DNA from: a bacterium
GTDB taxonomy: Bacteria; Patescibacteriota; Saccharimonadia; UBA4664; JBBRNT01
Length of the DNA: 64,000 nt
Direction: 5' to 3'
Assembly (NCBI GenBank): GCA_043767845.1
Contig: JAYUFZ010000006.1
Span: forward strand, 6,726-70,725
In this document: one piece after another, positions 27,304 to 60,269 of the stretch
Position numbering within the stretch: position 1 is the stretch's first letter
How the letters are laid out: each line of letters starts with the position of its first letter
Notes under the pieces: generated by a model
The model's input: the letters and a program-made list of their open reading frames with translations, nothing else
The model's database searches: none
What the model was told of the DNA's origin: nothing
Translations under genes and position numbers: made by a program

Positions 27304-28449
27304 TTAGGGGAGCTTGAATACATCGCGTACCCGGTGCAGGCTAAAGATCGTCGCCGCTGTATGAATGGTGCCGGGTAGCGTCGATACGGCCGTAGCAAAT
27401 CCGGCCTCTCGGACCAACGCTTCAGTTGCGGCATTATAGCTACCGTAGGGATAGGCAAAGTGGCGCACTGGGTGGCCGAGTTGAGCCTCGAGCTGCGCTT
27501 TGCCCTCAAATACTTGAAAGCGCTGCATTGCTGGGGGCTGGGCGGGGAGATTGAGATGGTCGATGGTGTGGGCGGCGATAGTAATGAGTCCACTTTTGTC
27601 GAGCTCGCGCACTTGGTCCCAGGTTAAGTAGGCATCGCCACAGCCAATTGCTTGGCTGTAGTTACGTCCGGCCCCAATACAATAATTGCTAGCCGCTCCG
27701 CCTACAATAATGTAGTAGGTAGCTTTCATATTGTACTTTTTGAGCAGCCGGAAAGCTTCCATCTGGTTACCGAAGCCATCATCAAAGGTAATGACCACCG
27801 GCTTAGCTGGGAGGGCGACATCGTGTGAGTACATAGCCTGAGCGAGCATATCCAGGTCGATAGTGGTGTAGCCCTTTTGGATGAGGTCTTGGAGTTGGGC
27901 CTCGAAGTTGGCAGGAGTGTAATGGTAGATGAGGATAGGCGCTGTCAGGCTGAAGCCGTAGAGCGGTTCGACGGCAGGCGGGTTGGCGAGGCGCTCCTTA
28001 GACAAACGGGCAAGCTCGGCGCGCAAGGTATTGATTTCCGCTTGAAGGCTATTAATATCGGTCCGTGTCGACTTCAGCTCGCCGGCCTGCAGCTCAAACT
28101 GTATTTTGATGAGTTCCTGCTGCAGGCTTGAGGCGTCGACCACCCGCGTGCCGTAGCTGGTTTGCGTATCCTCGAGCTCTTTTATCTCGTTGCTCAGGCC
28201 TGCGACATCGCGCCGTAGGCCTTGGCGCACGATGCCGCTTGAATTGTCCTGCTGAACTCGTGGGGCAGTAGCAAGGTGGCTAATCTCGAAGTATAGCCCG
28301 CTGATGCAGATAATAAGTATACCGGCCACGAATGAGAACTTACTCCATAGCAGGCGGTGCTGGGCCCGGAAGTTGGCAAACTGAACCCGTAGCTGCCTTT
28401 TGGCGGCGGCCTCGAGCTGGGTCGTGGGGCGGTTTTTCTGTAATGCCAT
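27304..28449 (-). CDS. polysaccharide deacetylase (NodB homology) with N-terminal TM and coiled coil
   Basis: C-terminal domain with TFDDG and HTIDH motifs. Start placed at ATG 28449 (MALQKNRP...). The longer ORF start at 28545 would sit 9 nt from the tRNA. Confidence 0.75.
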   Translation of the reverse strand: MALQKNRPTTQLEAAAKRQLRVQFANFRAQHRLLWSKFSFVAGILIICISGLYFEISHLATAPRVQQDNSSGIVRQGLRRDVAGLSNEIKELEDTQTSYGTRVVDASSLQQELIKIQFELQAGELKSTRTDINSLQAEINTLRAELARLSKERLANPPAVEPLYGFSLTAPILIYHYTPANFEAQLQDLIQKGYTTIDLDMLAQAMYSHDVALPAKPVVITFDDGFGNQMEAFRLLKKYNMKATYYIIVGGAASNYCIGAGRNYSQAIGCGDAYLTWDQVRELDKSGLITIAAHTIDHLNLPAQPPAMQRFQVFEGKAQLEAQLGHPVRHFAYPYGSYNAATEALVREAGFATAVSTLPGTIHTAATIFSLHRVRDVFKLP

Positions 28450-28553
28450 TGTTCTCAGTTTACCTGCTGGAGCATGATACTCCAAGCCGGCAGGCATTCT
28501 GGTCTTGAGCAAAACGGCCTCCGGTGGTATGATATGCGGGTTCAAATCCAGTC

Positions 28554-28628
28554 GGTCCCATCGTCTAGGGGTTAGGACACCAGGTTTTCATCCTGGCAAC
28601 GCGGGTCCGAATCCCGCTGGGATCACCA
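28554..28628 (+). tRNA. tRNA-Glu (anticodon UUC)
   Basis: GGTCCCA acceptor, D-arm TCGTCTAGGGGTTAGGAC, anticodon loop TTTTCAT (UUC), T-arm GCGGGTCCGAATCCCGC, 3' TGGGATC-A-CCA encoded. Confidence 0.85.
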
Positions 28629-28665
28629 AAGAAATGACTCAGAGTTAGCTCTGAGTCATTTCTTT
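28629..28665. terminator. perfect 17-bp hairpin terminator directly after the tRNA
   Basis: AAAGAAATGACTCAGAG-ttagc-TCTGAGTCATTTCTTT. Confidence 0.65.
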
Positions 28666-28680
28666 GTATAGTACGAGTAC

Positions 28681-28856
28681 GGGATTCGGACCCGCGTTGG
28701 CGGGGACGGCAAAGAAGGGTAAAACCCGCTATCCCGCTGGGATCACCATACAAAAGCGCCTCACTTATGTGGGGTGTTTTTGTATGGTGTGGCTCACCGA
28801 GCCTCGGACCCGTAGGGCGCTTGCGCCCGAAGAAGGCGTAGCCGCTATCCCGCTGG
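28681..28856. repeat. tRNA-Glu-derived fragments: inverted T-arm copy, 18-bp direct repeat of the tRNA 3' end, and a third partial repeat
   Basis: 28681-28696 GGGATTCGGACCCGCG is the reverse complement of tRNA positions 28600-28615. 28731-28748 ATCCCGCTGGGATCACCA is identical to the tRNA 3' end at 28611-28628. 28842-28856 CCGCTATCCCGCTGG repeats 28726-28740. A hairpin lies between them (28745-28788, 11-bp arms). Confidence 0.6.
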
Positions 28857-29008
28857 TATTCGCAAGCGATTGGGCTGCTGGGCGATCATCCCAAGCGCCC
28901 CACAGACAATTTACTTATCTAGCTTAACCATTGTGAAATACGTTACAGCCTAACCATCTTTGCTCCTTTAAACTACTGAAGTGCGCTCAAGTAACGAGGA
29001 GGAATAGT

Positions 29009-30103
29009 ATGCATAAATTATTAAAGTACAGTGTGATTGCGGTGGCGTTGGTCAGTCTGGGGTCAGCAGGCTCAGCCCTTGCAGATAGCAATGGTAGTCA
29101 ATATGGCAATGGCCAAAACTGGTCAAGCTCATGGAACAATACCGGCTACAGTGGATCAATGAACACCACAAACCAATCAGCTGGAAGTGGCAATGCCAAC
29201 TCTAGCACTGGCTGGAACAGCTGGAACCCAACAGCTTGGCAGCAAAACGGCCAAGGCTTTGGCAACTGGTGGAATGGCTTGCTCGGCCAGATGAATCAAA
29301 ACATTGGATCATGGCACAACACCGGCAATAACACTAGCTGGTGCCCGAGTGGCGACAATTGGCAAAACAATTGGTCGAATTGGGATCCACAGATGTGGCA
29401 GCAGAACGGTTCATCGTGGGCAAACTGGTACGGCCAAATGCTCGGCCACATGACCAGTAACTACAACGGTTGGCAAAACGGCTGGAATGCTGGAAATAAC
29501 AATACAGGTAATGCCTGGAACAACGGCAACAGCGGTACCGGAGTACAAGTCTGGGGCGGTAGCGGCGCAGGTGTACAAAGTGGCAATGGCCAAGCAGGTA
29601 CCAATGCCACAATCGGCACAACTGGCCCAGGTTCCTACAATGTGATCGATACTAATCGAAACAATAGCCAATACATTGAAAACAGCAATACGGTCGCAGT
29701 CAATAATCGCAGCACCCAGGACGCCATGAGCGGCAGCGCCAACGTCAGCGGCAATACTATTGGCGGCAATGCCTCTACTGGCTCTGCCGGTAACAACAAC
29801 ACGACGGCTACCCAAGTGGCTGTCTCAAACCCGACGATGTCTGGCGGGCAAGGCACGGGGTCTAACGGTAGCGGCTACTATGCTATCGGCATAACAGGAC
29901 CAAACTCCACCAACCGTATTCAGGCGAGTGATTCGTCGAATTACTATTCGCGGACAAGCAACAATGTGCAAGTATCGAACGATAATAATCAATACGCGCA
30001 CAGCGGTAATGCCAATGTCAGCGGTAATACTATCGGTGGGAGCGCCACGAGTGGCTCAGCCTATAACAACAACTCAGCGCAAACCGGCGTACAAATCCAC
30101 TAA
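29009..30103 (+). CDS. secreted Asn/Gly/Trp/Gln-rich low-complexity repeat protein
   Basis: Signal peptide AVALVSLGSAGSALA. The first half holds W-containing short repeats (NWxxxW, WQQNG). The second half holds two long imperfect repeats (...SGSANVSGNTIGGNASTGSAGNNNT... and ...SGNANVSGNTIGGSATSGSAYNNNS...). Confidence 0.75.
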   Translation: MHKLLKYSVIAVALVSLGSAGSALADSNGSQYGNGQNWSSSWNNTGYSGSMNTTNQSAGSGNANSSTGWNSWNPTAWQQNGQGFGNWWNGLLGQMNQNIGSWHNTGNNTSWCPSGDNWQNNWSNWDPQMWQQNGSSWANWYGQMLGHMTSNYNGWQNGWNAGNNNTGNAWNNGNSGTGVQVWGGSGAGVQSGNGQAGTNATIGTTGPGSYNVIDTNRNNSQYIENSNTVAVNNRSTQDAMSGSANVSGNTIGGNASTGSAGNNNTTATQVAVSNPTMSGGQGTGSNGSGYYAIGITGPNSTNRIQASDSSNYYSRTSNNVQVSNDNNQYAHSGNANVSGNTIGGSATSGSAYNNNSAQTGVQIH

Positions 30104-30263
30104 TAATAGTGATGTAGCCTAAGTTGGCCCGATAGTTGAGGAGAAGCACCTTCTTATGAGGGTGCTTCTCTCGTTTGGCGACTATAGGATAAAGCTAATA
30201 TAACTTGCAGGCAGCGCACTGTTGTAAAGCTTGAGGAAGTAGCCTATCATAAGCGCAATAGCC

Positions 30264-31484
30264 ATGGCGAAAACAAAAGGTCACATCCATAAAGCCCATA
30301 TCGTACTCGACTACCTCGTTCTGAAGTCGGGGATAGCGCTGATGAGCTTTTTGGCGGCTTATCTCTTCCTGGCATCCTCGCCGATCCCTAAGCTTTTTGC
30401 GGCTAGCACGCCGACCATCGCTGTGCCGAGCTACTTTTACCCAGGCCCACTTTGGACGCAAATGAGCAGTGCTGGTTCAAAGGTCGGAATCGCCATTATC
30501 AACCCTAGCAGTGGCCCGGGGGGTTCGGCCGACCCGAATTATGTCGCTGCCATTAACGCTGCCCGAGCTAGGGGTATCAAGGTGCTCGGCTACGTCTCGA
30601 CTGGCTATGGAGCTAAGGGCTCTGTCTTAAGCGACATTAGCACCTACTACTCACAATATACGCTTGATGGCATATTCCTCGATGAAGGTCCGACCGACTG
30701 CGGGTTGGTCAGCCAGTACCGGGGCTATGTCGCTGCGATCCGCGCCAAGGGCGGGATAAGCGTTATCAATCCTGGTACCATGCCTCAATCGTGCTGGGGT
30801 GATGTTGGCGATACACTGATGGTTTATGAGGGCAATGCTTCATCGTACTTAGCCTTCACGCCACCGGCCTGGACCAAAAACTATCCACCGACCAAGTTCT
30901 GGCACGCTGTTTACGAAGCGTCGGCTAGCCAGCTAGCTGCTATCATGAAGCACGCATCCGATATTGACGCTGGCTACATTTATGTGACGGACGATAACAA
31001 TACGCCAGCTGCAGGCGAAACCTATGGCAACCCATACGACACACTACCGAGTTACTGGTCAGACGAAGTTGGTAGTGCAGCCACAGCGCCCACGAACCCC
31101 TCAAACCCGACCAACCCTAGCAACCCAACGAACCCAGCGCCCGTCGTACCCGATATAGTAACAAAACCAGCCGACGGTAAGAAATTCACCTGTGACGCGA
31201 CAAGTATCTCGACCCCTGGCTTGCTGGACCTACTCAAGGCTGCCGGCTGTGAGGGCAGCGATAGGAACCCGATATTTTCGCTGCTGCAAGCCGTCATTAA
31301 CTGGCTGACTGGTATTCTGGGCGGCCTGGCCGTGCTGGCTATTATTGTGGCTGGTATCCAATATATTACCTCCCAGGGCTCACCCGACGCGCTCAGGCAG
31401 GCTAAATCACGGATTACCGCGGCGGTTGTCGGTTTGATTATACTGAGTATTATGTTCTTCCTGCTCAAGCTGATCGGCATCTAA
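30264..31484 (+). CDS. spherulin-4-like (GH-like) extracytoplasmic domain fused through a PT-repeat linker to a C-terminal two-helix pilin/VirB2-like membrane hairpin
   Basis: N-terminal TM/signal, a domain with the YFYPG...W pattern of the spherulation-specific family 4, a (P-[TS]-N)x5 linker (encoded by a 15-bp tandem DNA repeat near 31093-31137), then AVINWLTGILGGLAVLAIIVAGIQYITSQGSPDALRQAKSRITAAVVGLIILSIMFFLLKLIGI. Confidence 0.7.
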   Translation: MAKTKGHIHKAHIVLDYLVLKSGIALMSFLAAYLFLASSPIPKLFAASTPTIAVPSYFYPGPLWTQMSSAGSKVGIAIINPSSGPGGSADPNYVAAINAARARGIKVLGYVSTGYGAKGSVLSDISTYYSQYTLDGIFLDEGPTDCGLVSQYRGYVAAIRAKGGISVINPGTMPQSCWGDVGDTLMVYEGNASSYLAFTPPAWTKNYPPTKFWHAVYEASASQLAAIMKHASDIDAGYIYVTDDNNTPAAGETYGNPYDTLPSYWSDEVGSAATAPTNPSNPTNPSNPTNPAPVVPDIVTKPADGKKFTCDATSISTPGLLDLLKAAGCEGSDRNPIFSLLQAVINWLTGILGGLAVLAIIVAGIQYITSQGSPDALRQAKSRITAAVVGLIILSIMFFLLKLIGI

Positions 31485-31486
31485 TA

Positions 31487-31514
31487 TTGACAGAATCCAG
31501 AAAAAGTAGATAAT
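31487..31514 (+). promoter_or_regulatory. sigma70-like promoter (TTGACA, 16-17 bp spacer, ATAATA)
   Basis: -35 TTGACA at 31487-31492. -10 (G)ATAAT(A) around 31508-31514. Predicted TSS about 31521-31524. Confidence 0.4.
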
Positions 31515-31521
31515 ACCTAGA

Positions 31522-31796
31522 GGCGCAGTAACGGCCTGGTGTCCCAGTCCCGCCCATGGTGGGGCTGCAATCAGGGTTCGATCCCCTGACCTAGCTGGCA
31601 AACGGTGATTTTGTGAAGTGCAAACGAGTGACTATGTCAACGTCGGGCACCGCTCCAGAGTCACGAGGCATAGCCCGACCCGCAACCGCGTGGTTTGTTT
31701 ACTAAGTTTTGCGCTAGGGAAGGTATTAGCTATTTGCACACCTTCCCGACCCGGTATTATGCCTAATAAAAAGCCCCAAAATCATGAGGGCTTTTT
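31522..31796 (+). ncRNA. unclassified structured small RNA, about 275 nt, between a promoter and an intrinsic terminator
   Basis: No ORF. It contains a canonical tRNA T-arm hairpin CAGGG-UUCGAUC-CCCUG (31571-31587) immediately preceded by GGGGCUG (31560-31566), a tmRNA-like 5' signature. I could not find a matching 3' acceptor/CCA domain, and the tag frame is unconvincing. Confidence 0.35.
31769..31796 (+). terminator. intrinsic terminator
   Basis: AAAAGCCC-caaaatcatga-GGGCTTTT followed by TTAT. Confidence 0.6.
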
Positions 31797-31905
31797 ATGT
31801 TCGGAAAGCAGTTTCCAGGTATTTGGGGGTTTATATCATAAGCATTTTCGGCTATACTATAAACCGAAATTATTATGCGCTATCAAACACAAATGAGGAT
31901 TACCA

Positions 31906-54828: not shown

Positions 54829-55554
54829 ATGCATGTTTACAGGCGTTTTTTTGTGTGGGTGCTAGTAGGTTGGCTCGCGGTGCCAGGCCTAGTTTGGGCT
54901 GACGATTTGAAAAGTACGAATTACCAAATCCAGGAGAGTTTTGTGGGCGGTGGTGGCCGTATCGATGAAAGTTCGACAAACTTTCACGCCGCCGAATCGA
55001 TCGGCGACGCAGCTGTAGGCGATTCTGCTTCCACAAACCTACAGACGAAGTCTAGCTATACGACCACAAGTGATCCAGCGCTGACCTTCATTGTAGACAA
55101 CGGCGGGACAGTAAATTTCGGAGCGCTATCACCAACAGTCATGACCTACGCCACTTCAACCTTTCGGGTCATCAACTACACCAGCTACGGGTATCAAATA
55201 ATTATTACTGGCACCACGCCAAGCAATGGGCCCCACAGTATACCAGCACTTTCCACGCTGACGTCGCCGTCGATTGGTACCGAGCAATACGGCATAAACC
55301 TGGTGGCCAACAGCGGTTTTGGCGCCAACCCGCTCCAGGTACCATCAAGTAGCTTTAGCTATGGTGTAGCCCAGGGCCCCGACTACAACGTCGCTGACCA
55401 GTATAAGTTTGTTAGCGGCGATACTATTGCCAGCGCCCCGAAAAGCTCAGGTGAGACCGACTACACCATTTCGCATATTATTAATGTCTCGGCCCTCACC
55501 CTCGGCGGCCTGTATAGCTCCGGCCACGAACTTATCTGCATCGGCACTTATTAG
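54829..55554 (+). CDS. secreted SCPU/Csu-pilin-like protein, short paralog (P0)
   Basis: Signal peptide FVWVLVGWLAVPGLVWA. LTFIVDNGGTVNFGALSPT strand/FG motif, QYGINLV motif, and a C-terminus ...GGLYSSGHELICIGTY homologous to the ICTATF ends of the four longer paralogs. Confidence 0.65.
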   Translation: MHVYRRFFVWVLVGWLAVPGLVWADDLKSTNYQIQESFVGGGGRIDESSTNFHAAESIGDAAVGDSASTNLQTKSSYTTTSDPALTFIVDNGGTVNFGALSPTVMTYATSTFRVINYTSYGYQIIITGTTPSNGPHSIPALSTLTSPSIGTEQYGINLVANSGFGANPLQVPSSSFSYGVAQGPDYNVADQYKFVSGDTIASAPKSSGETDYTISHIINVSALTLGGLYSSGHELICIGTY

Positions 55555-55733
55555 GGATAGGGCGCAAGAGCGATAAGCCCATGGTAAGTAGTTTGACAAT
55601 GTTGTATCAACTACCACGCATATTTGTATTAATTACAACGAATCGCTATCTGATTTTTACGAAATAGCTGTTGACTGCTTTATTCCGCTAATGCTAAGCT
55701 AGTAACAGTCTATATTTGTGAATTAAGGATTTT

Positions 55734-56795
55734 ATGGCGGGTCGTCTCTCAATTCAGGGAAACCGAATTATAACCTGGACCAGTGTTTGGATTATGGCAA
55801 TTTACCTCTTTGCCCCGCTCACTGCATCCGCTGCTCAATTTACTTCGCGTAAGATTACGCTTGGCAGCTCGGCATTCTCGGCGGTAACTACCCATAAGTT
55901 TGATTTTGTCGTGCCAGTGGGCGGCGGTGGGAGCGTTGGGTCGATCCAGTTTTTGTATTGCCTCGCGGCTTCTGGTTCCTGTGTCACTCCTACAGGGTTG
56001 TCGACAACAAGTGCCACAATTTCAGCCCAGAGCGGTGCGACTGGTTTTACTATGGTTAACACCACAAATGGCGCACCCTACCTTACGCGCGCTGCCAGTG
56101 CCATTTCAGCGTCTACAGTGCTCAGCTATACGCTCGGAGTTGTTACTAACCCGAATATAGCAAATGAAACTTTTTATATTCGCATAAGTTACTTTACTGC
56201 CACGAATGCCACTGGCTCAGCACTGGATACTGGTATCGTTGCAGCCAGTACCGCTGCGCAGATTGTCGTAACAGCCCATGTCGATGAAATACTCATCTTT
56301 TGCGTTTATACTGGCGCGAATTGCGCGGCCGGCGGCACCACGGTCACGCTGGGTACTGTGACGCCTACAGTCACGGGTGTAGGTATATCCTATATGGATG
56401 CTGGTACCAATGCCGGTAGTGGCTACAGTATCCAGTACACAGCTCCAACACTGACTTCCGGTGCTAATACCATTACGGCCATCGGCACAACAGCCACTAC
56501 TTCGGTGGTTGGGACCGCCCAATTCGGTATCAATGCCACAGGGCCGAATGCCACCCCTACCGTCACTGGTTCACAAACACCAAGCGGCATCGCCCCTATC
56601 GGTAGCGCGGCAACGAATTACAATACTGCCGACAATTATGCTTTTGTTGCCAGCACGCTGACTACCGTCGCGACCTCCTCGGGTGCAGCTAACACCACCA
56701 AATTCTCTGTGTCATATCTGGCCAATGTTAACTCGTCACAAGCTGCTGGGGATTACACCTCAACCTTCACTTATATTTGTACGGCTACATTCTAA
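55734..56795 (+). CDS. secreted SCPU/Csu-pilin-like two-domain protein, paralog P1 (type A)
   Basis: AAGGA RBS 4 nt upstream. Signal peptide, conserved mature N-terminus AAQFTSRKITLGSS, Cys pairs (C-x6-C and C-x6-C), the QFGINA motif, and C-terminus AAGDYTSTFTYICTATF. About 75% identical to P4. Confidence 0.7.
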   Translation: MAGRLSIQGNRIITWTSVWIMAIYLFAPLTASAAQFTSRKITLGSSAFSAVTTHKFDFVVPVGGGGSVGSIQFLYCLAASGSCVTPTGLSTTSATISAQSGATGFTMVNTTNGAPYLTRAASAISASTVLSYTLGVVTNPNIANETFYIRISYFTATNATGSALDTGIVAASTAAQIVVTAHVDEILIFCVYTGANCAAGGTTVTLGTVTPTVTGVGISYMDAGTNAGSGYSIQYTAPTLTSGANTITAIGTTATTSVVGTAQFGINATGPNATPTVTGSQTPSGIAPIGSAATNYNTADNYAFVASTLTTVATSSGAANTTKFSVSYLANVNSSQAAGDYTSTFTYICTATF

Positions 56796-57904
56796 TGGGA
56801 AAAATCATGAACAAACAGATAGAACTCAAAAGAAAAATCTCCCAAATCGTTCTTGTCGCGATGACGCTCGCTATGCTGCCGGTCACCAATGCTTCTGCCG
56901 CCCAGATTACTGCCCGTAAACTGACGCTTGGTTCCTCGGCCTCGGCGACAGCTACTACCTATAATTTCGTGTTCACACTGCCAACAGCTACAGCCGTCAA
57001 GTCAGCGCGCTTCCAGGTTTGCTCCACGGCATCTGGCTCTTGTACTGTGCCTAATCTCTGGGCCAATACAGGCGCAACGCTTGGTAGTTTTACCAATATT
57101 GGTACCGGCTTTACTGTCGACCTGGCATCGAATGCTGACAGCTTAGGTATGACAAGCGCGGCTAACTCAACGGCACCGACGTCGCCCGTAACCGTGCAAT
57201 TCAATAATGTGACCAACCCTACTCTAACCACGCAGCCATTTAGCTTCTATGTACGGATTGCTACGTATTCATCTAATACCTATACCGGAGCGCTCGATAC
57301 TGGTGTAGTTGCGGCAGCTATCGTAAATCAGATCACGCTTACTGGTACCATGCCTGAGTCGCTCATCTTCTGTACGGGCGGCACAGTGACAGGCACTGAT
57401 TGCTCGACGGCTACGAGCGGTGCCGTGTCGTTCAACCAGTTCTTTTCACCCACAACTACCGCGACCGCGACATCGCAAATGGTTGCTTCGACTAATGCTG
57501 GTACGGGATATGTCATTACCGTGAGCGGTGCGACGATGACCTCCGGTGGTAGCACGATTACCGCCATGAGCTCATCGACAACATCTGTCATTGGTACGAG
57601 ACAATTCGGTCTCAATCTAGTCAGCAATGCTACGCCAGCAATTGGAGCCGCAGTAACCCCTGCCTCAAGCGCATCCGGCGGATCAACGCTACAAGCTAAT
57701 CCCGCTACCGGTTACGGGGCTGCCGACAACTTTAAGTTCCTAACTGGAGATACAGTAGCCAACTCGGACTTCCAAACTGGTGGCACAAATCGCGCCAGCG
57801 ACGCGCAGAATTATACTGTTTCCTACATAGTAAATGTAAATGGTAGTTTAGCCGCAGGCGTATACACGACGACGCTGTCTTACATCTGTACTGCCACATT
57901 CTAG
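56795..57904 (+). CDS. secreted SCPU/Csu-pilin-like two-domain protein, paralog P2 (type B)
   Basis: ATG 56795 overlaps the P1 stop (TAATG); alternatives are TTG 56777 and ATG 56807. Mature N-terminus AAQITARKLTLGSS, C-x6-C and C-x9-C pairs, QFGLNLV, C-terminus AAGVYTTTLSYICTATF. About 80% identical to P3. Confidence 0.7.
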   Translation: MGKIMNKQIELKRKISQIVLVAMTLAMLPVTNASAAQITARKLTLGSSASATATTYNFVFTLPTATAVKSARFQVCSTASGSCTVPNLWANTGATLGSFTNIGTGFTVDLASNADSLGMTSAANSTAPTSPVTVQFNNVTNPTLTTQPFSFYVRIATYSSNTYTGALDTGVVAAAIVNQITLTGTMPESLIFCTGGTVTGTDCSTATSGAVSFNQFFSPTTTATATSQMVASTNAGTGYVITVSGATMTSGGSTITAMSSSTTSVIGTRQFGLNLVSNATPAIGAAVTPASSASGGSTLQANPATGYGAADNFKFLTGDTVANSDFQTGGTNRASDAQNYTVSYIVNVNGSLAAGVYTTTLSYICTATF

Positions 57905-57996
57905 TCGAGCCTGATAGCGCCCTTTCAACAAAAAAGTAAATAAGTGTAAAAATCAGCTTGAAAAAGTTGTTGACATGATAATGCTAATGCTGCACA

Positions 57997-59151
57997 ATGG
58001 CATCAAGTACACAAAAAACAAAAGAACGAGCAAAACAAATGTACAAACAGAAGTCCACTAAAATACAACAGCTACAAGTTCGAATAGCCCAGATAGTTGT
58101 TATTGTCTTGGGCTTTAGTCTGTTGCCGTTATCCACGGCTCAAGCTGCGCAAATTACTGCTCGTAAACTAACGCTCGGTTCGTCCGCATCTGCCGCAGCA
58201 ACAACCTATAGTTTCCAATATACCCTGCCGACAGGCACGGCGGTTAAATCGGTGCGCTACCAGTTTTGTACACTTGCATCTGGTGCCTGCACAGTTCCTG
58301 GATCGTGGGTAAATACTGGCGCTACCCTCACAAGCTTTACCAATATCGGGACTGGCTTCGCTGTGGACTTAGCAACCAACGCCGATAGTCTCGGCATGAC
58401 CAGCGCGGCAAATTCTACAGCTCCGTCGTCCCCAGTGTCCGTACAGTTTAGCAATGTGACAAACCCTACCTCTGTCACTCAACCATTTAGCTTCTATGTA
58501 CGCATCTTCACCTACTCAACAAACACATACACCGGCGCACTTGACAGCGGCGTTGTCGCAGCGGCAATCAATCAACAAATAACTTTGACCGGCACCATGC
58601 CCGAATCACTCGTCTTTTGTACCGGTGCTACCGTCACAGGTACGGACTGTACAACTGCAACCTCTGGAGCAATAAGTTTCGGGACACTCTTCTCTCCAAC
58701 ATCAACATCCGTCACAACGTCGCAAATGGTAGCCTCAACAAATGCCGGGACAGGATATGTTATCACGGTCAACGGCGCGACAATGACATCTGGTGGTAAT
58801 ACCATAGCTGCTATGGGCTCGACTACTACTTCTCAACTCGGCGTCAGCCAGTTCGGTCTCAACCTAGTAGTCAATACTGTACCGTCGGTCGGGACAGCTA
58901 TTGCGCCAACGTCTAGTGCCCTAGGTGGTTCTACGCTTCAAGCTAATCCTTCAAGTAACTACGGCACAGCCGACAACTTCAAATTCACCAGCGGTGACAC
59001 TATAGCCAACTCAGACTTCCAAACTGGTGGTACAAACCGAGCAACAGATGCCCAAAACTATACCATTTCCTACATCGTGAATGTCCCAGGTAGCCAGGGA
59101 GCAGGTACCTATACGACAACCCTGACCTACATTTGTACAGCCACTTTCTAA
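57997..59151 (+). CDS. secreted SCPU/Csu-pilin-like two-domain protein, paralog P3 (type B)
   Basis: Same architecture as P2. A possible promoter (TTGACA -17- CACAAT, 57970-57998) would favour the internal ATG 58039 (MYKQKST...) as the real start. Confidence 0.7.
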   Translation: MASSTQKTKERAKQMYKQKSTKIQQLQVRIAQIVVIVLGFSLLPLSTAQAAQITARKLTLGSSASAAATTYSFQYTLPTGTAVKSVRYQFCTLASGACTVPGSWVNTGATLTSFTNIGTGFAVDLATNADSLGMTSAANSTAPSSPVSVQFSNVTNPTSVTQPFSFYVRIFTYSTNTYTGALDSGVVAAAINQQITLTGTMPESLVFCTGATVTGTDCTTATSGAISFGTLFSPTSTSVTTSQMVASTNAGTGYVITVNGATMTSGGNTIAAMGSTTTSQLGVSQFGLNLVVNTVPSVGTAIAPTSSALGGSTLQANPSSNYGTADNFKFTSGDTIANSDFQTGGTNRATDAQNYTISYIVNVPGSQGAGTYTTTLTYICTATF

Positions 59152-59204
59152 AAGCCAAAACTGTCCACTAAAAGTCCGAAAAACCCCAAAACAAAACGAA
59201 AACA

Positions 59205-60269
59205 ATGAAAACTACAAAATCAAAAATCAATCGAATAGACCGCATCAGGCACATCCTCGCCAAAATATTGATAGCGGCTACTATCATCGGGCTCACCCCC
59301 TTAACTGCCCAAGCTGGTTTCCAACCCAGGTCAGTATTACTCGGTAGTTCAGCTATATCAGTAGTAACGACTCATAGGTTTTCACTCACAGCCATTAATG
59401 GTGGTAGTGTTGGTTCAATCCAGTTTCTGTACTGCACCAGTGCTTCGGGGACTTGCACGACGCCTACTGGACTTTCGACTACCAGCGCGACCTTATCAGC
59501 GCAGTCCGGTGCTACCGGCTTCACCATGACGAATACCACCAATGGCGCACCATATATCACGCGAGCAGCATCAAGTATCACGGCGTCAACACCAATCAGC
59601 TATACGCTGGGTGTCATTACCAACCCATCAACCACCAATACCAGCTTCTTCATCCGCATTTCAACCTTTACTGCTACCAACGCCACGGGTTCGGCACTCG
59701 ATGCCGGTGTCGTGGCGGCCAGCACTGCAGCTCAGGTAGTGGTCAACGCCCATGTCGATGAGATTATCACCTTCTGTGTATACACTGGCGCCAACTGTGC
59801 TGCCGCTGGAGCAACTGTCGACCTAGGTACACTCACACCAACGACGACCGGCGTCGGCGTATCGTACATGGACGCTGGTACCAATGCTGGCAGCGGCTTC
59901 GCAGTCCAATACAACGGTCCGACGCTGACCTCCGGTGGTAACACGATCAGCTCGATCGGAGGCACTGCCACCACCTCGACAGTTGGGCTCGCCCAGTTTG
60001 GTATCAATGCCACTGGTACAAACGCCACTCCAGCCGTGACCGGCTCACAGACTCCGAGTGGTGTTGCGCCAATCGGCAGCGCCGCAACGAACTACGACGT
60101 CGCCGATACCTATGCTTTCGTGGCTAGTACGCCCACAACGCTGGCTACATCAAGCGGGGCCGCTAATACTACGAAGTATTCAGTCTCTTACGTATCAAAC
60201 ATCAACTCCTCCCAGGCCGCCGGTGATTACACGACAACAATTACTTACATCTGCACTGCTACTTTCTAG
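59205..60269 (+). CDS. secreted SCPU/Csu-pilin-like two-domain protein, paralog P4 (type A)
   Basis: Same architecture as P1. C-terminus AAGDYTTTITYICTATF. Confidence 0.7.
   Translation: MKTTKSKINRIDRIRHILAKILIAATIIGLTPLTAQAGFQPRSVLLGSSAISVVTTHRFSLTAINGGSVGSIQFLYCTSASGTCTTPTGLSTTSATLSAQSGATGFTMTNTTNGAPYITRAASSITASTPISYTLGVITNPSTTNTSFFIRISTFTATNATGSALDAGVVAASTAAQVVVNAHVDEIITFCVYTGANCAAAGATVDLGTLTPTTTGVGVSYMDAGTNAGSGFAVQYNGPTLTSGGNTISSIGGTATTSTVGLAQFGINATGTNATPAVTGSQTPSGVAPIGSAATNYDVADTYAFVASTPTTLATSSGAANTTKYSVSYVSNINSSQAAGDYTTTITYICTATF

What the first reader, a model, noticed from the sequence alone, without database searches (positions are those of the whole stretch)
31487..31796. Promoter- and terminator-bounded ~275-nt non-coding RNA with tRNA/tmRNA-like elements that I cannot classify
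A TTGACA/ATAAT promoter, about 275 nt with no credible ORF, then a clean intrinsic terminator, all just upstream of the glycolytic operon. Inside are GGGGCUG directly followed by a textbook T-arm CAGGG-UUCGAUC-CCCUG, which together resemble the 5' end of tmRNA (GGGGxUG....GGxUUCGA). The 3' tRNA-like half, a P1 partner strand with CCA, is absent on either strand before pyk. Candidate tag frames give either A-N-E-stop or a non-canonical 11-residue peptide ending YYA before TAATAA. It could be a diverged or permuted ssrA whose other piece lies elsewhere, a truncated ssrA left by an integration event, or a novel tRNA-like sRNA.
Basis: seen in the sequence. Interest (0 to 1): 0.5.

Follow-up and report, generated by a model that had tools for sequence, protein, structure and literature searches.

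The report
Unclassified structured RNA gene in Saccharibacteria
Between a pilin-like gene and the glycolytic operon of a Saccharibacteria (CPR) genome lies a real, selectively maintained gene for a ~255-280-nt folded RNA carrying a tRNA-type T-arm hairpin; it is not tmRNA or any catalogued RNA family, it was found in only one other genome, and its function is unknown.

Summary
The promoter (TTGACA-16-GATAAT), an ORF-free ~275 nt, the terminator and the T-arm hairpin are all present as described. Rfam 15 (gathering cut-off, and E<=10 on the region) and ARAGORN give no tmRNA, RNase P, 6S, SRP or other family.

One orthologue was found, in the same place: L012, a Logan contig whose pyk is 86% identical. 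Four-fold degenerate sites of pyk are only 39% identical between the two, so neutral sites are saturated. Against that background the -35 and -10 hexamers are 6/6 identical (spacer 7/16), the RNA's 5' block is 91% identical, and the T-arm plus following joiner 86%.

Eight helices (P1-P8) plus a small hairpin P5a and the terminator can be drawn in both, with about 10 two-sided compensatory changes and one broken pair.

The tmRNA cues are not conserved. GGGGCUG is the 3' strand of a variable hairpin, both candidate tag frames disappear in L012, and there is no CCA, no G3:U70 and no acceptor strand next to the T-arm.

Best reading: an independently transcribed, lineage-restricted structured sRNA with a tRNA-like module. 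A 7-bp end helix, UA, a hairpin and a canonical T-arm are followed by a ~115-nt insert before the closing strand. Function is unknown; a protein-binding tRNA-elbow mimic is my guess. No homologue turned up in more distant Saccharibacteria loci or in metagenome, viral, phage or plasmid searches.

The parts
31487..31514 (+). Sigma-70-type promoter: -35 TTGACA (31487-31492), 16-nt spacer, -10 GATAAT (31509-31514)
   Evidence: Matches 11/12. In L012 both hexamers are 6/6 identical while the spacer is 7/16.
31522..31800 (+). Inferred transcript: start about 7-8 nt after the -10 at GGCGCAG, end in the U run after the terminator hairpin. About 255 nt to the terminator stem, about 279 nt in all.
   Evidence: Inferred from the promoter and terminator positions. 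No transcript data. Fold z = -3.7 on the + strand versus -2.6 on the - strand. Five G:U pairs per sequence in the model would be A:C mismatches on the other strand.
31522..31528 (+). P1 5' strand GGCGCAG. It pairs with 31709-31715 to give a 7-bp end helix, followed by U-A as at tRNA positions 8-9.
   Evidence: Predicted by RNAalifold. All 7 pairs are standard in both sequences. Both strands are invariant, so there is no covariation for or against.
31529..31537 (+). J1/2 joiner UAACGGYCU, conserved, containing GG
   Evidence: 8/9 identical in L012.
31538..31544 (+). P2 5' strand GGUGUCC, pairing with 31645-31651 (GGGCACC)
   Evidence: There are 7 bp in the window; L012 has 6 bp plus one G:A. 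One two-sided change (C-G to A-U) and one one-sided change (U:G to U-A). The alternative, a 2-bp D-like stem CGG/CC with this segment as its loop, is not excluded.
31545..31567 (+). P3 variable hairpin: 10 bp with loop CAU in the window, 6 bp with loop AACAA in L012.
   Evidence: Sequence identity is 47% but a hairpin sits at the same place in both, with the outer C-G and A-U pairs conserved.
31571..31589 (+). P4, a T-arm-like hairpin: 6 bp plus the 7-nt loop UUCGAUC (UUCAAUU in L012), which fits the tRNA T-loop pattern UUCRANY
   Evidence: The outermost pair covaries (U-A to C-G); the other five pairs are invariant.
31590..31603 (+). J4/5 conserved joiner CCYAGCUGGCAAAC
   Evidence: 13/14 identical in L012. 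It occurs once in the window at 0 mismatches.
31610..31624 (+). P5 hairpin: 4 bp (UUUG/CAAA; GCCG/CGGU in L012) with the conserved 7-nt loop UGAAGUS
   Evidence: Three of the 4 pairs change on both sides and stay paired.
31628..31641 (+). P5a small variable hairpin (GC-GAAA-GC in L012)
   Evidence: Drawn by hand; weak support.
31645..31663 (+). P2 3' strand (31645-31651) followed by joiner J2/6, in which KCUCC is conserved
31664..31677 (+). P6 hairpin: CG-A-GGC AUA GCC-CG in the window, GCGGA CUCG UCCGC in L012
   Evidence: Predicted independently in the MFE folds of both sequences. All pairs are standard. Three pairs differ on both sides, but the alignment was made by hand.
31678..31694 (+). 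P7 hairpin with a bulged U; the closing pair is A-U in the window and G-C in L012
31695..31715 (+). J7/1 joiner, then the P1 3' strand UUGCGCU (31709-31715)
31717..31747 (+). P8 3' hairpin GGGAAGGU...ACCUUCCC (11 bp in L012)
   Evidence: There are two G-C to G:U changes and one two-sided change, and the apical part is replaced.
31748..31765 (+). 3' tail with the partly conserved RACCCGRWAUUMAUSCC.
   Evidence: 50% identity; the frame is not conserved.
31766..31800 (+). Intrinsic terminator: hairpin 31766-31798 (core AAAAAGCCC...GGGCUUUUU) plus a U run
   Evidence: -15.2 kcal/mol, z = -5.4. L012 has a different hairpin, CCCCUC-UUCC-GAGGGG, at the same place (-12.9 kcal/mol, z = -4.0).
31834..31905 (+). 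Not part of the RNA: the pyk-proximal conserved block with a TATACT -10-like box, i.e. pyk's own promoter and 5' UTR
   Evidence: 71% identical in L012, although L012 has a ~140-nt insertion between the terminator and this block. Similar TAYRCT boxes stand before pyk in some relatives that lack the RNA (L013, L147, L149).

Best explanation
This is an independent gene for a stable, highly structured small RNA of about 255-280 nt. It is transcribed from its own near-consensus sigma-70 promoter and ended by its own intrinsic terminator. So far it is restricted to one narrow Saccharibacteria lineage.

Fold (shown by comparing two sequences):
- A 7-bp helix, P1, joins the 5' end to a strand about 185 nt downstream.
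- P1 closes a junction from which P2, P6 and P7 emerge.
- P2 encloses a sub-domain holding a variable hairpin (P3), a canonical T-arm hairpin (P4) and a hairpin with a conserved 7-nt loop (P5).
- A 3' hairpin (P8) and the terminator follow.
- Read 5' to 3', the start resembles a tRNA: 7-bp end helix, UA, a GG-containing segment, a hairpin, a 3-nt linker and the T-arm. About 115 nt of extra structured RNA then stand between the T-arm and the closing strand. There is no anticodon loop and no CCA.

Mechanism (inferred, not shown): the RNA acts in trans as a folded particle rather than as an mRNA or a leader. Its T-loop either builds a tRNA-like elbow or makes an intramolecular tertiary contact. 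The conserved joiners (UAACGGYCU, CCYAGCUGGCAAAC, loop UGAAGU, CUCC) form the binding surface for a protein or RNA partner that normally recognises tRNA-shaped RNA. In that reading it is a scaffold or decoy in the manner of Y RNA/YrlA.

The confidence given applies to 'real, independently transcribed, structured non-coding RNA of no known family, and not tmRNA'. The scaffold/decoy mechanism on its own I put at about 0.25.
For: No known family:
- Rfam 15 gives no match at the gathering cut-off in 64 kb, or at E<=10 in 31400-31900; only terminator look-alikes appear.
- ARAGORN finds only tRNA-Glu at 28554-28628.

Orthologue L012 sits in the same place, pilin-like gene then RNA then pyk.

Selection:
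- pyk is 86% identical in protein but only 42% at third codon positions and 39% at 204 four-fold sites.
- By contrast the -35 and -10 are each 6/6, the spacer 7/16, the 5' block 21/23, and the T-arm plus J4/5 31/36. The hairpins P3, P6 and P7 are about 47% identical in sequence yet keep their pairing.

Structure:
- RNAalifold finds 42 pairs, 5 of them compensatory.
- For 18 pairs of the 5' domain, 97% of cells are paired, against 29-44% when partners are slid by 1-3 columns; 4 pairs change on both sides.
- In the hand-drawn model every pair of P1-P8 is standard in both sequences except one G:A.
- P3+P4 and the terminators fold with z = -3.6 to -5.4; the whole RNA gives z = -3.7 (window) and -2.3 (L012).

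Strand: G:U pairs, the promoter and the orientation of the T-loop all point to the + strand.

Independence from pyk: there is a terminator; L012 has a 140-nt insertion between the terminator and pyk; and a separately conserved -10-like box stands before pyk.

tRNA-likeness: joining the 5' part to the P1 3' strand gives a sequence that ARAGORN calls a tRNA at 95% (window) and 90% (L012) of its default threshold, versus 0/500 full shuffles.
Against: - There are only two sequences, so covariation statistics are weak: 32 of 500 column shuffles reach the observed values. P1 has no covariation at all, and P5a, P6 and P7 rest on a hand alignment.
- There is no transcript evidence.
- No homologue appeared in about 115 kb from Saccharibacteria with 60-64% identical pyk, in JGI metagenomes with a T-arm+AGCTGGCAAA pattern, or in viral contigs, phages or plasmids. 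The RNA is therefore young, fast-evolving, or simply missed by exact-pattern scans.
- Most of the ARAGORN score comes from the end helix and the T-arm that I placed next to each other. With those fixed and the middle shuffled, 32% (window) and 6% (L012) of controls are still called at the 90% threshold.
- No partner protein (Ro/Rsr, SmpB, RNase P protein) is encoded in the window.
- The mechanism is conjecture.
Confidence: 0.75

Rival explanations
1. Base-pairing regulatory sRNA. The structured body only stabilises the RNA, and one of the conserved single-stranded blocks (CCYAGCUGGCAAAC, UGAAGU, or the anti-Shine-Dalgarno-like CUCC) pairs with target mRNAs.
For: It has its own promoter and terminator, and several conserved unpaired blocks of 7-14 nt.
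Against: At about 255 nt with eight conserved helices it is far more structure than base-pairing sRNAs usually carry. No complementary site for the 14-nt block exists in the 64-kb window at 0-1 mismatch. Targets could not be searched genome-wide.
Confidence: 0.15
2. Cis-acting leader (riboswitch or attenuator) of the pyk-pgk-tpiA operon. The structured RNA senses a ligand or factor and the terminator decides read-through.
For: The order is promoter, structured RNA, terminator, then pyk 106 nt downstream on the same strand.
Against: - L012 carries a 140-nt AT-rich insertion between the terminator and pyk.
- pyk has its own conserved -10-like box downstream of the terminator.
- Relatives keep pyk-pgk-tpiA without this RNA.
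- No anti-terminator alternative that is conserved in both sequences was seen.
- No riboswitch family matches.
Confidence: 0.07
3. Diverged, permuted or truncated ssrA (tmRNA).
For: There is a canonical T-arm. In the window, GGGGCUG precedes it and two short frames end in stop codons. In the window CCUAGC after the T-arm could also pair with GCUAGG at 31713-31718, giving a permuted-type acceptor-like helix.
Against: - No tmRNA model or ARAGORN call.
- GGGGCUG and both frames are not conserved in L012.
- There is no CCA, no G3:U70, and no acceptor strand next to the T-arm.
- The permuted-type helix acquires a C:C mismatch through a two-sided change in L012.
- No smpB lies in the window, though it could be elsewhere in the genome.
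Confidence: 0.02
4. A tRNA gene or pseudogene disrupted by an intervening sequence (an intron-like insert of 112-119 nt between the T-stem and the 3' acceptor strand), either spliced to a tRNA-sized product or decaying.
For: The spliced construct is called tRNA-like just below ARAGORN's default threshold. [quoted passage not shown]
Against: - Those introns sit in the anticodon loop (35/36 and nearby) and are of canonical group I length according to that paper, which 112-119 nt is not.
- The two orthologues have different 'anticodons' (CAU and ACA), loops of 3 and 5 nt and no U33.
- The D-stem has only 2 bp.
- No CCA is encoded, whereas the tRNA-Glu genes of relatives encode it.
- The insert itself is conserved and structured, with covariation.
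Confidence: 0.04

Closest known systems
tmRNA (ssrA), standard and two-piece/permuted forms
   Same: A bacterial RNA of a few hundred nt with its own promoter and terminator. It has a canonical T-arm, a GG-containing single strand after a 7-bp end helix, and a large extra domain inserted into a tRNA-like frame.
   Different: - The insert lies between the T-arm and the 3' strand of the end helix, not between the D-loop analogue and the T-arm.
- There is no CCA, no G3:U70, no conserved tag frame, and no match to any tmRNA model.
Bacterial Y RNAs / YrlA (Ro60/Rsr-bound tRNA mimics; PMC4201824)
   Same: A non-coding RNA in which a tRNA-like module with a canonical T-arm is joined to a second module. 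It is not aminoacylated as a rule. This is the model for the scaffold/decoy mechanism proposed here.
   Different: - YrlA runs T-arm, then acceptor-like hairpin, then D-arm, with a Ro-binding stem carrying GNCGAAN0-1G, and is encoded next to rsr.
- Here the order is end helix, GG segment, hairpin, T-arm. No GNCGAA motif is conserved and no TROVE/Rsr gene lies in the window.
- This RNA is about twice as long.
tRNA, including Patescibacteria tRNA genes with divergent group I introns (PMC13011429)
   Same: A 7-bp end helix followed by UA, a T-arm with a UUCRANY loop, and tRNA-like spacing of the 5' 65-70 nt. The host phylum is known for tRNA genes that annotation tools miss.
   Different: There is no anticodon loop, the D-stem is at best 2 bp, and no CCA is encoded. 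The insert is at a position and of a size unknown for introns. The loop sequences differ between the two orthologues.
Orphan large structured bacterial ncRNAs (raiA, OLE, ROOL and similar motifs)
   Same: An independently transcribed, multi-helix, conserved RNA of unknown biochemical function, recognised by comparative analysis.
   Different: There is no sequence or structure match to any of them in Rfam 15. Only two members are known so far, in one CPR lineage.

Membership tests
tmRNA (ssrA) | Match to a tmRNA covariance model or an ARAGORN tmRNA call | tested here: not met
   Rfam 15 at the gathering cut-off and at E<=10 gives no tmRNA, alpha/beta/cyano tmRNA or mt-tmRNA. ARAGORN gives none.
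tmRNA (ssrA) | Acceptor stem with G3:U70, ending in an encoded or addable ACCA directly after the T-arm | tested here: not met
   The T-arm is followed by (A/G)CC(U/C)AGCUGGCAAAC. The only 7-bp end helix, GGCGCAG/UUGCGCU, has C3-G70 or G3-C70 depending on register and is followed by A/C-GGG.
tmRNA (ssrA) | Conserved tag reading frame with a resume codon and stop | tested here: not met
   Neither the A-N-E-stop frame nor the ...YYA-stop-stop frame exists in L012.
tmRNA (ssrA) | This is the only ssrA in the genome, and SmpB is present | not testable with these tools
   Only 64 kb of the genome is available. No SmpB domain is found among the window's ORFs.
RNase P RNA / 6S RNA / SRP RNA | Match to the family covariance model (conserved P4 core; rod with central bubble; domain IV motif) | tested here: not met
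   No such match even at E<=10. The conserved fold is a multi-branch junction, not a rod.
YrlA / bacterial Y RNA | T-arm, acceptor-like hairpin and D-arm in that order, a Ro-binding strand GNCGAAN0-1G, and a gene next to rsr (TROVE) | tested here: not met
   The order of elements differs, no GNCGAA motif is conserved in both sequences, and no TROVE-domain ORF is in the window. Feature list taken from PMC4201824.
tRNA | Cloverleaf with a 7-nt anticodon loop (U33), a 3-4-bp D-stem and a contiguous acceptor 3' strand | tested here: not met
   There is no ARAGORN or Rfam tRNA call on the native sequence. The artificially spliced sequence passes only below the default threshold. The loops are CAU (3 nt) and AACAA (5 nt).
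tRNA-type T-arm (T-loop hairpin) | At least 5 bp of G/C-rich stem closed by G53-C61, with the 7-nt loop U54-U55-C56-R57-A58-N59-Y60 | tested here: met
   CAGGG-UUCGAUC-CCCUG in the window and CAGGG-UUCAAUU-CCCUG in L012, with a covarying sixth pair.
Group I intron (in a tRNA gene) | P3-P9 catalytic core of canonical group I length, with insertion in the anticodon loop | tested here: not met
   There is no RF00028 match, although PMC13011429 reports that this model misses divergent Patescibacteria introns. The insert is 112-119 nt and lies 3' of the T-stem.
Independent sRNA transcription unit | Its own promoter and its own intrinsic terminator, both maintained in orthologues | tested here: met
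   Actual transcription is not testable here.

The most novel reading that the evidence does not exclude
A new class of tRNA-derived structured RNA in CPR bacteria. A tRNA frame (end helix, GG segment, hairpin, T-arm) has been opened between the T-stem and the 3' acceptor strand and has acquired a ~115-nt multi-helix domain, a topology different from both tmRNA and YrlA. It would work as a ribonucleoprotein scaffold or decoy for a tRNA-recognising factor in organisms with very reduced regulatory repertoires.
Probability: 0.2. Interest if true: 0.65.

Novelty: new variant of a known kind. Interest (0 to 1): 0.42.

Why it matters
Non-coding RNAs of Saccharibacteria and other CPR bacteria appear little charted: my literature searches found no description of sRNAs in them.

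A strongly promoted, selectively maintained, multi-helix RNA with a canonical T-arm that fits no Rfam family is a concrete candidate for a new RNA with a tRNA-mimicking module. It also shows how such modules can be recruited outside tmRNA and Y RNAs.

The case is a useful caution as well. The motifs that made the locus look like tmRNA (GGGGCUG and the short tag-like frames) disappear in the first orthologue examined.

Its weight is limited by a very narrow known distribution (two genomes) and by the absence of any functional clue from the neighbouring genes.

Tried and rejected
**Known families**
- Rfam on the whole window and on the region at E<=10 gave only terminator look-alikes.
- ARAGORN for tRNA and tmRNA found nothing at the locus.

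**Synteny route**
- pyk relatives in GTDB genomes and in the protein collection: L001, L013-15 and L146-151, with pyk 60-64% identical.
- These have tRNA-Glu or other genes, not this RNA, upstream of pyk. nhmmer, a T-loop scan and covariance model R1 find nothing beyond tRNA T-arms.

**Upstream gene route**
- The Spherulin4/pilin fusion has no homologue above 49% identity.
- Its pilin domain alone gives 4 hits of at most 52% identity, in unrelated T4SS contexts.

**DNA pattern scans**
- The T-arm+AGCTGGCAAA pattern in JGI metagenomes gave 11 hits, all chance matches inside coding sequence.
- Four viral-contig scans found nothing real.
- blastn against phages and plasmids found nothing.

**Other checks**
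- No paralogues in the window.
- Coding potential: no frame is open or conserved in both sequences.

**Resemblances considered by eye and dropped**
The matching letters are not conserved in L012, or no model matches:
- 5S rRNA loop C (CCCAUG...GAAGUG).
- SRP Alu domain (GCCUGGUGUCCCAG against GCCUGUAGUCCCAG).
- GEMM-I GCAAAC repeats.
- Cobalamin and T-box elements.

**Alternative pairings of the 5' end**
- Pairing with the 3' tail appears in the window's MFE, but it is only partly possible in L012.

**Literature**
- No description of such an RNA in Saccharibacteria or CPR.
Full report
**1. What is in the sequence**

The window comes from a Saccharibacteria (CPR/Patescibacteria) genome. Its pyruvate kinase finds Saccharibacteria/Saccharimonadia proteins as best relatives. 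The gene upstream of the finding carries a C-terminal T4SS-pilin domain, a domain I know as common in CPR genomes (own knowledge, not tested here).

The interval 31485-31905 lies between that gene (30264-31484, a Spherulin4 domain fused to a pilin-like domain) and pyk-pgk-tpiA (31906 onward). It contains:
- TTGACA (31487-31492), 16 nt, then GATAAT (31509-31514). This matches 11 of 12 and is the best promoter-like site in the 2 kb scanned.
- About 250 nt in which all six frames are interrupted.
- A hairpin at 31766-31798 (core AAAAAGCCC...GGGCUUUUU) with a U run, at -15.2 kcal/mol and z = -5.4.
- GGGGCUG at 31561-31567, and the hairpin UCAGGG-UUCGAUC-CCCUGA at 31571-31589.

The physical observation is therefore correct.

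**2. Known families**

Rfam 15 finds only tRNA-Glu (28554-28625) in the whole window at gathering thresholds. On 31400-31900 at E<=10 it reports only weak matches that align to the terminator hairpin. No tmRNA of any type, RNase P RNA, 6S, SRP, Y RNA, riboswitch or intron model appears. ARAGORN finds no tmRNA and no tRNA at the locus.

**3. An orthologue, and what it shows**

Among about 8000 pyk relatives, one is 86% identical (P0001). The next best are at most 64%.

Its 2955-bp contig (L012, Logan SRR23617225) has the same arrangement: the 3' end of a pilin-like gene, about 550 nt without a called gene, then pyk. The spacer aligns with the window.

Neutral divergence between the two genomes is saturated. 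pyk is 86% identical in protein but 42% at third codon positions and 39% at 204 four-fold degenerate sites.

Conservation across the locus:

| Region | Identity |
|---|---|
| -35 hexamer | 6/6 |
| -10 hexamer | 6/6 |
| promoter spacer | 7/16 |
| 31522-31544 (5' block) | 21/23 |
| 31568-31603 (linker, T-arm, following joiner) | 31/36 |
| hairpins P3, P6, P7 | about 47% |

The hairpins P3, P6 and P7 keep their position and pairing despite that low identity.

The terminator is replaced by a different hairpin at the same place, CCCCUC-UUCC-GAGGGG, at -12.9 kcal/mol and z = -4.0.

This is the pattern of a transcribed, structured RNA gene under purifying selection. It is not the pattern of a decaying remnant.

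**4. The tmRNA cues fail**

- In L012 GGGGCUG is CGGAUG. In both genomes it is simply the 3' strand of a hairpin of variable length and sequence: CAGUCCCGCC-CAU-GGUGGGGCUG against CAUCCG-AACAA-CGGAUG.
- The A-N-E-stop frame and the ...YYA-stop-stop frame have no counterpart in L012.
- The T-arm is followed by the conserved (A/G)CC(U/C)AGCUGGCAAAC, not by an acceptor strand and CCA.
- The only acceptor-like helix has no G3:U70.
- A permuted-type helix (CCUAGC with GCUAGG) is possible in the window. In L012 it acquires a C:C mismatch through a change on both sides.
- No SmpB, Ro/TROVE or RNase P protein domain is encoded in the window.

**5. Secondary structure**

RNAalifold on the two sequences gives 42 pairs, 5 of them with compensatory changes. 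Combining this with the separate MFE folds, I drew one architecture that fits both sequences. Every pair was then checked by script. Window coordinates:

| Helix | Coordinates | Notes |
|---|---|---|
| P1 | 31522-28 / 31709-15 | 7 bp, invariant |
| P2 | 31538-44 / 31645-51 | C-G to A-U, U:G to U-A, one G:A in L012 |
| P3 | 31545-67 | variable |
| P4 | 31571-89 | T-arm; U-A to C-G in the sixth pair |
| P5 | 31610-24 | UUUG/CAAA to GCCG/CGGU, three two-sided changes around the conserved loop UGAAGUS |
| P5a | 31628-41 | weak |
| P6 | 31664-77 | |
| P7 | 31678-94 | closing pair A-U to G-C |
| P8 | 31717-47 | |
| terminator | 31766-31800 | |

For the 18 pairs of the 5' domain that MAFFT aligns unambiguously:
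- 97% of cells are standard pairs, against 29-44% when partners are slid by 1-3 columns.
- 4 pairs change on both sides.

With two sequences the shuffle control is weak: 32 of 500 shuffles reach the observed values.

Five G:U pairs per sequence, the promoter and the T-loop orientation all indicate the + strand. The + strand folds better than 200 of 200 shuffles (z = -3.7), compared with z = -2.6 for the - strand.

**6. How tRNA-like is it?**

Read from the 5' end, the elements are:
- a 7-bp end helix;
- U-A, as at tRNA positions 8 and 9;
- a GG-containing segment;
- a hairpin;
- a 3-nt linker;
- a canonical T-arm (loop UUCRANY, with G-C closing the loop).

In a tRNA the 3' acceptor strand would follow at once. 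Here 112-119 nt (P5 to P7 and the joiners) intervene.

If that insert is removed in silico, ARAGORN calls a tRNA at 95% (window, 'CAU') and 90% (L012, 'ACA') of its default threshold, but not at 100%. Fully shuffled controls give 0 of 500. With the end helix and T-arm kept and the middle shuffled, 32% and 6% still pass. The signal therefore comes mostly from the two elements I placed next to each other.

The hairpin loops (3 and 5 nt, no U33, different in the two orthologues) rule out decoding. The D-stem would have only 2 bp, and it competes with P2, which has one covarying pair.

My conclusion is that there is a genuine T-arm and a tRNA-like 5' frame, but this is not a tRNA.

Patescibacteria do hide tRNA genes behind divergent group I introns that RF00028 and ARAGORN miss (PMC13011429). 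Those introns sit in the anticodon loop and are of canonical group I length, so this case does not fit that explanation.

**7. Distribution and context**

In all more distant relatives fetched (pyk 60-64% identical: L001, L013-15, L146-151), the interval between a polysaccharide deacetylase gene and pyk is a variable region. In L001, L013-15, L147, L149 and L150 it carries tRNA-Glu(UUC). None of them has this RNA, by nhmmer, T-loop scan or model R1.

Other searches also found nothing:
- The upstream fusion protein has no close homologue.
- A T-arm+AGCTGGCAAA pattern found only chance hits inside coding sequence in JGI metagenomes.
- Viral contigs, phage records and plasmids gave nothing.

The family therefore has two known members in one narrow lineage. 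Exact-pattern scans could easily miss diverged members.

**8. Independence from pyk**

A terminator ends the RNA. L012 has a 140-nt AT-rich insertion between the terminator and pyk. A separately conserved block with a TATACT box precedes pyk (71% identity), and similar boxes precede pyk in some relatives that lack the RNA (L013, L147, L149). A leader or riboswitch role is therefore unlikely.

**9. Interpretation**

Shown:
- a conserved promoter;
- a conserved multi-helix fold with compensatory changes;
- a conserved T-arm;
- a terminator;
- no ORF;
- no known family.

Inferred:
- The locus makes an abundant, stable trans-acting RNA.
- Its T-loop builds a tRNA-like elbow or a tertiary contact.
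- The conserved joiners bind a partner.

The closest working analogy is the bacterial Y RNA YrlA, in which a tRNA-mimicking module is joined to a second module (PMC4201824). Membership fails on element order, on the Ro-binding motif and on gene neighbourhood. tmRNA membership fails on every sequence feature that could be tested.

I classify it as a new variant of the known kind 'structured bacterial sRNA with a tRNA-like module'. Interest is moderate: it is real and unclassified, but narrowly distributed and without a functional handle.

Noticed in passing
window 54829-60269: Five tandem paralogous ORFs of 241-384 aa. The pairs 55734/59205 and 56777/57997 are about 74% identical and the others 30-40%. 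None has a Pfam match. This looks like a lineage-specific expanding gene family.
   Followed up: partly
window 30264-31484: The protein fuses a Spherulin4 (PF12138) domain to a C-terminal T4SS-pilin/TrbC-like membrane domain through a Pro/Asn/Thr-rich linker. No homologue above 49% identity exists among 5.8 billion proteins, and the fusion was not seen among the listed hits.
   Followed up: partly
window 27304-31905; L001, L013-15, L147, L149, L150: The interval between a polysaccharide deacetylase gene (-) and pyk (+) is a variable hot spot next to tRNA-Glu(UUC). It holds 0-7 kb of unrelated genes in different Saccharibacteria. In the relatives the tRNA is on the strand opposite to pyk. In the window it is on the same strand, and a 364-aa ORF, the pilin fusion and the RNA lie on its 3' side. 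No integrase or direct repeat of the tRNA 3' end was seen.
   Followed up: partly
L012 495-650: An AT-rich insertion of about 140 nt, built of TTTTCAAT / ATTGAAAA direct and inverted repeats, lies between the RNA terminator and the pyk promoter block. It is absent from the window and may be a miniature mobile element.
   Followed up: no
window 31834-31905: The pyk-proximal block is 71% identical to L012 despite saturated neutral divergence. It contains ATCATAAGCA and a TATACT -10-like box, and is probably the pyk promoter plus a regulatory site.
   Followed up: partly
window 31766-31798: The terminator hairpin has an A run before it and a U run after it, so it could terminate in both directions. 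The pattern scanner reported it only for the minus strand.
   Followed up: partly
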